From the human T2T-CHM13v2.0 reference genome, Homo sapiens: 64,000 nt of DNA. Under the pieces are notes generated by a model. The model saw nothing but the letters and a program-made list of their open reading frames with translations. It had not been told where the DNA came from and searched no databases. Shown here piece after piece: positions 7,655 through 10,027 of this stretch (the stretch's first letter is position 1; each line of letters opens with the position of its first letter). The DNA lies in NCBI RefSeq assembly GCF_009914755.1, contig NC_060931.1; one strand, given 5' to 3'. The position numbers were made by a program, and so were the translations under genes.

Positions 7655-7790
7655 GATCTTTGGGTACAAGCAGACTTAGATTTTAATAACAATTATATTT
7701 AGTTACTAGTAGTTTAACATTGAAGAATATTGCATATTTCCTCTAAGCCTAGATTTCTGAATCTGTGAAAGACAATAAGAACTAATTTCA
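7655..7790 (+). mobile_element. MIR, 5' part (continues at ~9948-10010 beyond the L1 insertion)
   Basis: CCTCTAAGCCTAGATTTCTGAATCTGTGAAA core on the left; TTAAATGAGATAAT on the right of the L1. Confidence 0.55.
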
Positions 7791-7814
7791 GACGAGATCA
7801 GGCGCGTTCAGGGT
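7788..7814 (-). pseudogene. 5S rRNA fragment (nt 16-42), antisense to the adjoining L1
   Basis: Reverse complement ACCCTGAACGCGCCTGATCTCGTCTGA matches human 5S rRNA ACCCTGAACGCGCCCGATCTCGTCTGA at 26/27; the mismatch is a CpG transition. Confidence 0.9.
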
Positions 7815-9933
7815 CAATATCATACTGAATGGGCAAAAACTGGAAGGATTCCCTTTGAAAACTGGTACAAGACAGGGATGCCCTCTCTCACCACTCCTAT
7901 TCAACATAGTGTTGGAAGTTCTGGCCAGGGCAATCAAGCAGGAGAAGGAAATAAAGGGTACTCAATTAGGAAAAGAGGAGGTCAAATTGTCCCTGTTTGC
8001 AGATGACATGATGGTATATCTAGAAAACCCCATCATCTCAGCCCAAAATCTCCTTAAGCTGATAAGCAACTTCAGCAAAGTCTCAGGATACAAAATCAAT
8101 GTGCAAAAATCACAAGCATTCTTATACACCAATAACAGACAAACAGAGAGCCAAATCATGAGTGAACTCCCATTCACAATTGCTTCAAAGAGAATAAAAT
8201 ACCTAGGAATCCAACTTACAAGGGATGTGAAGGACCTGTTCAAGGAGAACTACAAACCACTGCTCAACAAAATAAAAGATGATACAAACAAATGGAAGAA
8301 CATTCCATGCTCATGGGTAGGAAGAACCAATATCGTGAAAATGCCCATACTGCCCAAGGTAATTTATAGATTCAATGCCATCCCCATCAAGCTACCAATG
8401 ACTTTCTTCACAGAATTGGAAAAAACTACTTTAAGTTCATATGGAACCAAAAGACAGCCCACATTGCCAAGTCAATCCTAAGTCAAAAGAACAAAGCTGG
8501 AGGCATCACGCTACCTGATTTCAAACTATACTACAAGGCTACAGTAACCAAAACAGCATGGTACTGGTACCAAAACAGAGATATAGACCAGTGGAACAGA
8601 ACAGAGCCCTCAGAAATAATACCACACATCCACAACTGTCTGATCTTTGACTAACCTGAGAAAAACAAGCAATGGGGAAAGGATTCCCTATTTAATAAAT
8701 GGTGCTGGGAAAACTGGCTAGCCATATGTAGAAAGCTGAAACTGGATCCCTTCCTTACACCTTATACAAAAATTAATTCAAGATGGATTAAAGACTTAAA
8801 TGTTAGACCTAAAACCATAAAATCCCTAGAAGAAAACCTAGGCAATACCATTCAGGACATAGGCATGGGCAAGGACTTCATGTCTAAAACACCAAAAGCA
8901 ATGGCAACAAAAGCCAAAATTGACAAATGGGATCTAATTAAACTAAAGAGCTTCTGCACAGCAAAAGAAACTACCATCAGAGTGAACAGGCAACCTACAA
9001 AATGGGAGAAAATGTTTCCAATCTACTCATCTGACAAAGGGCTAATATCCAGAATCTACAATGAACTCAAACAAATTTACAAGTAAAAAACAAACAACCC
9101 CATCAACAAGTGGGTGAAGGATATGAACAGACACTTCTCTAAAGAAGACATTTATGCAGCCAAAAGACACATGAAAAAGTGCTCATCATCACTGGCCATC
9201 AGAGAAACGCAAATCAAAACCCAATGAGATAACATCACACACCAGTTAGAATGGCAATCATTAAAAAGTCAGGAAACAACAGGTGATGGAGAGGATGTGG
9301 AGAAATAGGAACACTTTTACACTGTTGGTGGGACTGTAAACTAGTTCAACCATTGTGGAAGTCAGTGTGGCGATTCCTCAGGGATCTAGAACTAGAAATA
9401 CCAGTTGACCCAGCCATCCCATTACTGGGTATATACCCAAAGGATTATAAATCATGCTGCTATAAAGACACATGCACACATATGTTTATTGTGGCACTAT
9501 TCACAATAGCAAAGACTTGGAACCAAGCCAAATGTCCAACAATGATAGACTAGATTAAGAAAATGTGGCACATATACACCATGGAATACTATGCAGCCAT
9601 AAAAAAGGATGAGTTCATGTCCTTTGTAGGGACATGGATGAAGCTGGAAACCATCATTCTCAGCAAACTATCGCAAGGACAAAAAACCAAACACCGCATG
9701 TTCTCACTCACAGGTGGGAATTGAACAATGAGAACACATGGACACAGGAAGGGGAACATCACACACTGGGGCCTGCTGTGGGGTGGGGGGAGTGGGGAGG
9801 GATAGCATTAGGAGATATACCTAATGTAAATGATAAGTTAATGGGTGCAGCACACCAACATGGCACATGCATACATATGTAACAAACCTGCACGTTGTGC
9901 ACATGTACCCTAAAAGTTAAAGTATAAAAAAAG
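7815..9933 (+). mobile_element. 5'-truncated LINE-1 (L1PA4/5-like): ORF2 RT and C-terminal region, 3' UTR, short poly(A); ORF2 disrupted
   Basis: ORF 7855-8481 has [18 protein letters not shown] and LFADD; frameshifts and stops follow; 3' UTR GGAGATATACCTAATGTAAATGA; TSD AAGAACT(A/C)ATTTCA at 7777-7790 and 9934-9947. Confidence 0.97.
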
Positions 9934-10027
9934 AAGAACTCATTTCATAACACTGTATTATATTTAAATGAGATAATAATAATCAGGTACAGTCCTTGTT
10001 GCTTAGAAAATATTGCTTTCTCTTCTT

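What the first reader, a model, noticed from the sequence alone, without database searches (positions are those of the whole stretch)
7777..9947. L1 insertion capped by an ANTISENSE 5S rRNA fragment inside one TSD: twin priming in trans on a second RNA?
Seen: a 14-bp TSD (7777-7790 and 9934-9947, one mismatch) within a MIR encloses 24 nt of reverse-complement 5S rRNA (7791-7814) joined directly to a 5'-truncated sense L1. The last 3 nt of the left TSD (TCA) also continue the 5S complement (5S nt 40-42, UGA). Known: U6-L1 and related chimeras normally have both parts in the same orientation; L1 5' inversions arise by twin priming, where the second-strand 3' end primes internally on the L1 RNA through microhomology; 3'-truncated tailless 5S retrocopies exist. 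Inference: the second nick primed on a 5S rRNA molecule (plausibly ribosome-associated with the L1 RNP), and the two cDNAs were joined head-to-head. One insertion would then have been templated by two RNAs from opposite ends of the target site. Short inverted cellular-RNA caps on truncated L1s could be an under-recognised class.
Basis: partly seen in the sequence, partly recalled or inferred. Interest (0 to 1): 0.82.

Follow-up and report, generated by a model that had tools for sequence, protein, structure and literature searches.

The report
Antisense 5S rRNA cap on L1
A truncated human L1 retrotransposon carries a short backwards copy of 5S ribosomal RNA at its front end, made in the same insertion event; this kind of two-RNA insertion is real but was already described in print in 2025-2026.

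Summary
Window 7788-7814 is the reverse complement of human 5S rRNA nt 16-42 (26 of 27; the one mismatch is a CpG transition). It sits between a 14-bp target-site duplication (13 of 14; 6 of 200,000 shuffles do as well) and a 5'-truncated sense L1 that starts inside the reverse-transcriptase domain. Both junctions show 3-nt microhomology: TCA with the duplication and GGT with L1. No 5S remainder follows the L1, so a single event is the only economical reading.

The proposed mechanism, top-strand priming on 5S rRNA ("twin priming in trans"), fits. The breakpoint lies at loop C. That is the site used by hundreds of stand-alone tailless 5S retrocopies, which show the same TCA overlap.

It is not new. 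Law & Burns (bioRxiv 2025; Cell Genomics 2026) list 27 5S/L1 chimeras, 23 of them antisense, and propose twin priming. Noll et al. 2015 described 555 tailless 5S retropseudogenes primed internally.

This locus is not in their table, probably because the 24-nt cap falls below their filters. A limited scan found one more uncatalogued short cap, on chrX. Their own table shows the duplication overlapping the 5S annotation in 18 of 23 antisense rows. This is a new member of a known kind, of modest interest.

The parts
7777..7790 (+). Left (5') target-site duplication; its last 3 nt (TCA, 7788-7790) are also complementary to 5S nt 40-42
   Evidence: 13 of 14 identical to 9934-9947; 6 of 200,000 shuffles reach 13 of 14.
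7788..7814 (-). 5S rRNA nt 16-42, antisense to the L1. 7791-7811 can only be 5S; 7788-7790 are shared with the TSD and 7812-7814 (GGT) probably with L1
   Evidence: 26 of 27 to the chr1 5S array copy L010, with a CpG>CpA mismatch at 7800; the same string occurs in a published 5S northern probe; nt 35-40 form hairpin loop C and G41/A42 are its closing pairs.
7815..9925 (+). 5'-truncated L1 body in sense orientation, starting inside the ORF2 reverse-transcriptase domain and running to the 3' UTR
   Evidence: many genomic copies match from 7815 on; 81-95% identity to 7 sampled genomic L1 copies and to L1PA7/L1PA8A elements named in Table S2 of PMC13174262. Pfam RVT_1, E=2.1e-22, profile positions 105-205 of 205.
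9926..9933 (+). Short L1 A-tail (7 A, then G) abutting the right TSD
   Evidence: Read directly.
9934..9947 (+). Right (3') target-site duplication
7775..7780 (+). First-strand cleavage context AT/AAGA on the L1 sense strand, an L1 endonuclease-like site by the 1T/3A rule of Table S2
   Evidence: Read directly. The rule is taken from the legend of Table S2.

Best explanation
This is a single L1 integration event that copied two RNAs from the two ends of one staggered break.

1. L1 endonuclease nicked the bottom strand at AT/AAGA, and L1 RNA was reverse-transcribed from its A-tail. That cDNA reached only into the reverse-transcriptase-coding part of ORF2.
2. The top strand was cut 14 nt away. 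Its 3' end (...TTTCA) annealed to 5S rRNA at U40-G41-A42, on the 3' side of hairpin loop C.
3. ORF2p extended that end for about 21-24 nt, down to 5S nt 16-18.
4. The 3' end of this short 5S cDNA (...GGT) paired with the 3' end of the L1 first-strand cDNA, and each was extended on the other.

The product is TSD, then antisense 5S, then sense L1, A-tail and TSD.

Shown: the anatomy, the two microhomologies, the loop-C site and the class-level parallels. Inferred: that the template was RNA, that ORF2p did the copying, and the order of the steps.
For: - One TSD encloses both parts (6 of 200,000 shuffles).
- No 5S nt 1-15 remainder lies anywhere from the L1 start to 10400.
- TCA is shared between the TSD and 5S. 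GGT is shared between 5S and L1 in 3 of 7 sampled copies, including the closest.
- In the Rfam alignment nt 35-40 are hairpin loop C and G41/A42 its closing pairs.
- A pattern for 5S fragments lacking nt 51-52 gave 342 genome hits against 0 for the control.
- In the 30 loci fetched from that pattern, 18 have TCA directly upstream, 29 run to nt 3 or lower, and at least 19 have their own TSD at 10 of 12 or better. The single exception on the 5' end is an L1 chimera. So the same site and overlap serve ordinary target-primed copying of 5S.
- Noll et al. 2015 report 555 human tailless 5S retropseudogenes, favour internal priming and report target-site complementarity (sections read).
- Law & Burns list 27 5S/L1 chimeras and propose twin priming. 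By my reading of their Table S2, 23 are antisense (binomial p=3e-4), 12 of those 23 end at nt 40-50, and the upstream TSD overlaps the 5S annotation by 1 nt or more in 18 of 23 and by 3 nt or more in 13 of 23.
Against: - This is one locus, and a 3-nt microhomology has a chance probability of about 1 in 64 at each junction.
- The GGT overlap depends on what the source L1 read at that point; 4 of the 7 sampled copies do not have GGT.
- Sequence alone cannot tell an RNA template from a DNA template, or priming from end-joining capture.
- Co-arrival of the 5S piece and the L1 in primates was not testable with these tools.
- The TSD/5S overlaps were computed from RepeatMasker coordinates in the published table. 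I inspected sequence for only six of the 23 antisense rows, three in fetched loci and three in the 13-nt flanks listed.
- Unlike most stand-alone copies, the 5S copy stops at nt 16-18 rather than nt 1. The model explains this only by assuming early joining to the L1 cDNA.
Confidence: 0.78

Rival explanations
1. End-joining capture of filler. A free 5S cDNA or DNA fragment was ligated between the broken top strand and the L1 cDNA by microhomology-mediated end joining, without being primed from the top-strand nick.
For: Three-nucleotide microhomologies at both junctions are also what end joining leaves. A single locus cannot separate the two routes.
Against: Random capture predicts both orientations equally, but 23 of 27 published 5S/L1 chimeras are antisense. 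The breakpoint is the same loop-C site used in ordinary target-primed tailless 5S copies. TSD/5S overlaps reach 5-13 nt in 10 of 23 published antisense rows.
Confidence: 0.1
2. Two separate insertions. A tailless antisense 5S retrocopy landed first and an L1 later inserted into it, or the reverse.
For: Stand-alone tailless 5S copies with the same upstream context are common: 342 pattern hits.
Against: The only TSD encloses both parts, and the L1 has no TSD of its own. No 5S nt 1-15 remainder follows the L1. A deletion ending exactly at the TSD boundary would be needed.
Confidence: 0.03
3. DNA template. The cap was copied from the non-coding strand of a 5S gene or pseudogene, for example the nearby RNA5SP234, by template switching during repair.
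For: A 5S pseudogene lies about 74 kb upstream (hub annotation).
Against: RNA5SP234 today differs from the cap at 6 of 27 positions in nt 16-42, while the cap differs from the canonical 5S at only 1. The breakpoint at an RNA hairpin loop and the parallel with hundreds of retrocopies point to RNA.
Confidence: 0.03
4. Sense-type chimera mechanism. This would be template switching of ORF2p from L1 RNA to 5S RNA, or RNA ligation before integration, as for U6/L1.
For: These routes are favoured in the literature for U6/L1 and U3/L1 chimeras.
Against: Both routes give the small RNA in the same orientation as the L1 (legend of Figure 7). Here it is antisense.
Confidence: 0.02

Closest known systems
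Antisense 5S rRNA/LINE-1 chimeric insertions (Law & Burns, Cell Genomics 2026, PMC13174262; bioRxiv 2025.02.02.635956)
   Same: A 5S piece lies antisense and directly 5' of a truncated L1 inside one TSD, with a 3' breakpoint at loop C. Twelve of the 23 antisense rows in their table end at nt 40-50; here it is nt 42. The cleavage site is endonuclease-like, and they propose twin priming as the mechanism.
   Different: This locus is absent from their Table S2: there is no chr7 row and its TSD string is not in any of the four readable supplementary files. The cap is only 24-27 nt, shorter than any listed segment (36 nt or more). It is likely missed because their census needs a RepeatMasker 5S call and their alignment gaps must exceed 25 bp. 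The paper suggests 'targeted processing' for the breakpoint and never mentions microhomology or annealing. Here, and in their own table, the TSD overlaps the 5S sequence.
Tailless 5S retropseudogenes (Schmitz et al. 2004, seen only in reference lists; Noll et al. 2015, PMC5322556)
   Same: 3' truncation in a single-stranded loop, no A-tail on the 5S part, and a target 3' end complementary to the RNA at the breakpoint. The upstream context (T-rich, then TCA) is the same in 18 of 30 sampled copies.
   Different: Stand-alone copies have their own TSD pair and run to nt 1-3 (29 of 30). Here the 5S copy stops at nt 16-18, shares its TSD with an L1, and was primed from the opposite strand to the L1.
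Twin priming L1 5' inversions (Ostertag & Kazazian 2001; seen only in reference lists, model recalled)
   Same: Two cDNAs are primed from the two strands of one staggered break and joined head to head through microhomology, within a single TSD.
   Different: The inverted segment is not L1 sequence from the same RNA but a different cellular RNA.
U6/L1 chimeric pseudogenes (Moldovan et al. 2019, PMC6789731, passages read)
   Same: A small RNA is fused to the 5' end of a truncated L1 within one TSD.
   Different: U6 is full-length and in sense orientation in 98.3% of cases, and is explained by RNA ligation or template switching. Here the RNA is truncated at both ends and antisense.

Membership tests
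Antisense 5S/LINE-1 chimeric insertion | 5S-derived segment directly 5' of an L1, antisense to it | tested here: met
   26 of 27 to 5S nt 16-42, reverse complement; L1 from 7815, sense.
Antisense 5S/LINE-1 chimeric insertion | One TSD flanks the compound insertion; the L1 A-tail abuts the 3' TSD | tested here: met
   (13 of 14; 6 of 200,000 shuffles).
Antisense 5S/LINE-1 chimeric insertion | 5S breakpoint at loop C (about nt 40-50) or loop D (about nt 90) | tested here: met
   Boundary at nt 39-42; loop C in the Rfam structure; 12 of 23 published antisense rows end at nt 40-50.
Antisense 5S/LINE-1 chimeric insertion | Both parts arrive together across species (multi-species alignment) | not testable with these tools
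   No primate genomes or alignments are on hand.
Tailless retropseudogene | 3' truncation in a loop, no A-tail, target complementary to the RNA 3' end | tested here: met
   3-nt TCA overlap.
Tailless retropseudogene | Own TSD pair around the RNA copy alone, with a complete 5' end | tested here: not met
   The TSD is shared with the L1; the 5S copy ends at nt 16-18; no remainder is present.
Classical twin-priming L1 inversion | The inverted 5' segment is L1 sequence from the same RNA | tested here: not met
   The inverted segment is 5S rRNA.
Classical twin-priming L1 inversion | Microhomology at the priming and joining junctions | tested here: met
   TCA. GGT in 3 of 7 sampled L1 copies, including the closest; the second junction is probable, not certain.
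U6/L1-type sense chimera | Small RNA in the same orientation as the L1 | tested here: not met
   antisense.

The most novel reading that the evidence does not exclude
Very short antisense small-RNA caps (about 25 nt or less) are a blind spot of the only catalogue, because they escape both RepeatMasker and its rule that alignment gaps exceed 25 bp. On this reading, some of the 'extra' or 'filler' nucleotides long noted at L1 5' junctions are brief ORF2p excursions on bystander RNAs. These would be primed from the top-strand nick by 2-13 nt of complementarity at exposed loops, and the breakpoint hotspots would then reflect internal priming rather than pre-cleaved RNA fragments. My limited scan found two uncatalogued 5S cases, this one and one on chrX.
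Probability: 0.25. Interest if true: 0.5.

Novelty: new member of a known kind. Interest (0 to 1): 0.3.

Why it matters
The locus is a clean, well-preserved example of one retrotransposition event templated by two RNAs from opposite strands. Both junctions are readable to the base. That helps a mechanism (second-strand priming by L1 ORF2p) that is still poorly defined.

Its main value is as a refinement, not a discovery. It shows that the published catalogue misses caps of about 25 nt or less. Together with the coordinates in that catalogue, it also suggests that target-RNA annealing sets the 5S breakpoints, rather than prior cleavage of 5S. It has no evident consequence for genes: the site is intergenic.

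Tried and rejected
- Rfam scans of 7700-7900 (E up to 10) and of the whole window found no 5S. The piece is too short for the model, so I used a 5S gene from the same genome instead.
- The 'within a MIR' claim could not be tested. BLAST of the computed empty site against the rest of the window gave only short chance hits, none across the junction. The left flank matched only itself in the genome.
- Chance resemblance is rejected: the 24-nt pattern gave 435 genome hits against 0 for the reversed control.
- An L1 inserted into an older 5S retrocopy is rejected: no nt 1-15 remainder is present.
- The nearby pseudogene RNA5SP234 as a DNA template gets no support.
- A first pairwise alignment of the chrX tail piece to this window's L1 3' end was not significant (score 26, equal to the shuffle maximum). 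A BLAST against older L1 3' ends in the window then gave E=5e-15.
L1 comparisons therefore cover only roughly the 3' 3.6 kb.
- A Pfam scan of raw frames failed on stop codons; open stretches were used instead.
- L1 subfamily was not assigned. I report only pairwise identities: 95.4% to the best of 7 sampled copies, 86-91% to two L1PA7 elements and 81% to an L1PA8A element named in Table S2.

Full report
**Observation**

The left flank reads ...AAGAACTAATTTCA, followed by GACGAGATCAGGCGCGTTCAGGGT and then CAATATCATACTG.... The right end reads ...AAGTATAAAAAAAG, then AAGAACTCATTTCA, then TAACAC.... The two 14-mers (7777-7790 and 9934-9947) match at 13 of 14. Only 6 of 200,000 shuffles of the 120 nt upstream contain a match that good.

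Rfam does not call the short piece. I therefore took a 5S gene from the chr1 array of the same genome, which the tools hold as G000. Window 7788-7814 is the reverse complement of 5S nt 16-42 at 26 of 27, and the mismatch at 7800 is CpG>CpA. A published 5S northern probe contains the same string. The 24-nt 5S pattern has 435 genome hits against 0 for its reversed control.

From 7815 on, the sequence matches many genomic L1 copies. It also encodes the C-terminal half of a reverse-transcriptase domain (Pfam RVT_1, E=2.1e-22). The 5S/L1 junction occurs once in the genome.

**Refinements**

In addition, GGT (7812-7814) is what 3 of 7 sampled L1 copies read immediately upstream of the L1 start, and these include the closest copy (95.4% identical). 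Both junctions thus carry about 3 nt of microhomology, and 21 nt can only be 5S.

The Rfam alignment of the human gene puts nt 35-40 in hairpin loop C, with G41 and A42 as its closing pairs. No copy of 5S nt 1-15 (3 or fewer mismatches) lies between 7815 and 10400. That excludes an L1 landing inside an older 5S retrocopy. The 'MIR' statement could not be verified.

**Context in the genome**

- A pattern for antisense 5S nt 18-39 (CpG-tolerant, 1 mismatch or fewer) that forbids the 5S bases at nt 51-52 gave 342 hits against 0 for the control.
- I fetched 30 of the 342 (the first 30 zero-mismatch rows, chr1 to chr3). Of these, 29 run to 5S nt 3 or lower, and 18 have TCA directly upstream.
- At least 19 of the 30 carry their own TSD at 10 of 12 or better, beginning right after nt 1. 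One is a full-length variant gene.
- Two of the 30 are L1 chimeras that are already in the published table.

These are the tailless 5S retropseudogenes of Noll et al. 2015 (PMC5322556). In the abstract, passages and sections 15 and 16 that I read, they report 555 in human, truncation hotspots in loops, and complementarity between target and RNA. They conclude for internal priming. The cap in this window therefore uses the ordinary priming site of L1-mediated 5S copying, but from the opposite strand to its L1.

**Literature**

Law & Burns (Cell Genomics 2026, PMC13174262; also a bioRxiv preprint dated 2025-02-03 in the search listings) are the key source. I read sections 10, 18 and 34 part 1, further passages, Table S2 part 1 including its 5S sheet, and part 1 of Table S3. 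They state that 5S segments in 5S/L1 chimeras are typically antisense and truncated, commonly at positions 46 and 90. They propose twin priming for antisense chimeras.

Their 5S sheet has 27 rows. My reading of it gives the following.

- 23 rows are antisense (binomial p=3e-4).
- The 3' boundaries fall at nt 40-50 in 12 of the 23 and at nt 80-102 in 11 of the 23.
- The 5' boundaries lie above nt 5 in 9 of the 23.
- There is no chr7 row, and the TSD string of this locus is in none of the four readable supplementary files. Three PDF supplements could not be read.

Their census required a RepeatMasker 5S annotation within 50 bp of the L1, and their alignment-based search kept only gaps longer than 25 bp. 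That explains why a 24-nt cap was missed. NCBI's mask also begins only at 7811 (hub note).

**A point the paper does not make**

The main text has 0 occurrences of 'microhomolog', 'anneal' or 'internal priming'. It suggests 'targeted processing' for the breakpoint instead. From the coordinates in Table S2, the upstream TSD overlaps the 5S annotation by 1 nt or more in 18 of 23 antisense rows. The overlap is 3 nt or more in 13 rows and 5 nt or more in 10. In 5 rows it does not overlap.

These numbers rest on RepeatMasker boundaries. I saw sequence for only six of those rows. Taken with Noll et al., they favour annealing of the top-strand 3' end to 5S over use of pre-cut 5S.

**Scan for sibling short caps**

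A second pattern (the same core, forbidding the 5S bases at nt 10, 9, 8 and 5) gave 21 hits genome-wide against 0 for the control. All 21 were fetched and examined.

- Seven are copies of one indel-bearing pseudogene in segmental duplications.
- Several more are indel or mutated copies.
- Three are 5S pieces ending at nt 14-18 directly against a sense L1: this locus, a chr4 L1PA7 chimera already in Table S2, and a chrX locus.

The chrX locus (G000:C23:137407820) has antisense 5S nt 14-39 plus about 85 nt of an old L1 3' end and an A-tail, inside a 14-nt TSD (13 of 14). The L1 identity of its tail piece rests on a BLAST hit of E=5e-15 to an old L1 3' end in the window, after a first alignment was not significant. 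It is not in Table S2. The missed subclass exists, but it is small within this detection window.

**Mechanism**

The best reading (confidence 0.78) is a double target-primed event.

1. The bottom strand, nicked at AT/AAGA, primes on the L1 A-tail.
2. The top-strand end ...TTTCA primes on 5S at nt 40-42.
3. After about 21-24 nt the 5S cDNA end (...GGT) pairs with the end of the L1 cDNA, and the two are completed on each other.

The rivals are end-joining capture of a 5S cDNA (0.10), two separate insertions (0.03), a DNA template such as RNA5SP234, which differs at 6 of 27 positions (0.03), and sense-type template switching or RNA ligation (0.02). Each fits less well.

**Verdict**

The finding is real and well read, but it is a new member of a known kind rather than a new class. 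Interest is 0.3.

Noticed in passing
L077 (G000:C23:137406320-137409354), about locus positions 1487-1625: A second uncatalogued short cap. Antisense 5S nt 14-39 is joined to about 85 nt of an old L1 3' end plus an A-tail, inside a 14-nt TSD (13 of 14) whose last 2 nt overlap 5S. It is not in Table S2 of PMC13174262.
   Followed up: partly
L093 (G000:C21:39349882-39352916), about locus positions 1497-1545: Antisense 5S nt 17-41 preceded by a T-run and CCA and followed directly by an A-rich run. No clear TSD was found. It may be a cap on an insertion truncated to its tail, or something else.
   Followed up: no
L086 (G000:C4:19162840-19165874): Table S2 lists this chr4 L1PA7 chimera as 5S:1-92. 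In the T2T copy the 5S match ends at about nt 18, directly against the L1, so the published 5' boundary looks too generous.
   Followed up: partly
L078-L083 and L085 (chr1, chr2 and chr4 pericentromeric regions): Seven near-identical copies of one 5S pseudogene with an internal indel, each followed by a T-run and an antisense Alu-like sequence. They appear to have been spread by segmental duplication.
   Followed up: no
window 10012-10354: An AT-rich tandem array (units like AAATATTTAAATATTTAA) begins 65 nt downstream of the right TSD. It is masked in NCBI's file and seems unrelated to the insertion.
   Followed up: no
window 37010-39188 (-), 31965-33864 (-), 62141-63998 (-), 59663-60044 (-): Other L1 fragments of differing ages (72-93% identical to the L1 at 7815-9933). 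Their 5' junctions were not examined for caps.
   Followed up: no
L096 (G000:C7:80905900-80906120): RNA5SP234 aligns only to 5S nt 5-90 (local alignment), so it looks like another 3'-truncated retrocopy, ending at the second (about nt 90) hotspot.
   Followed up: partly
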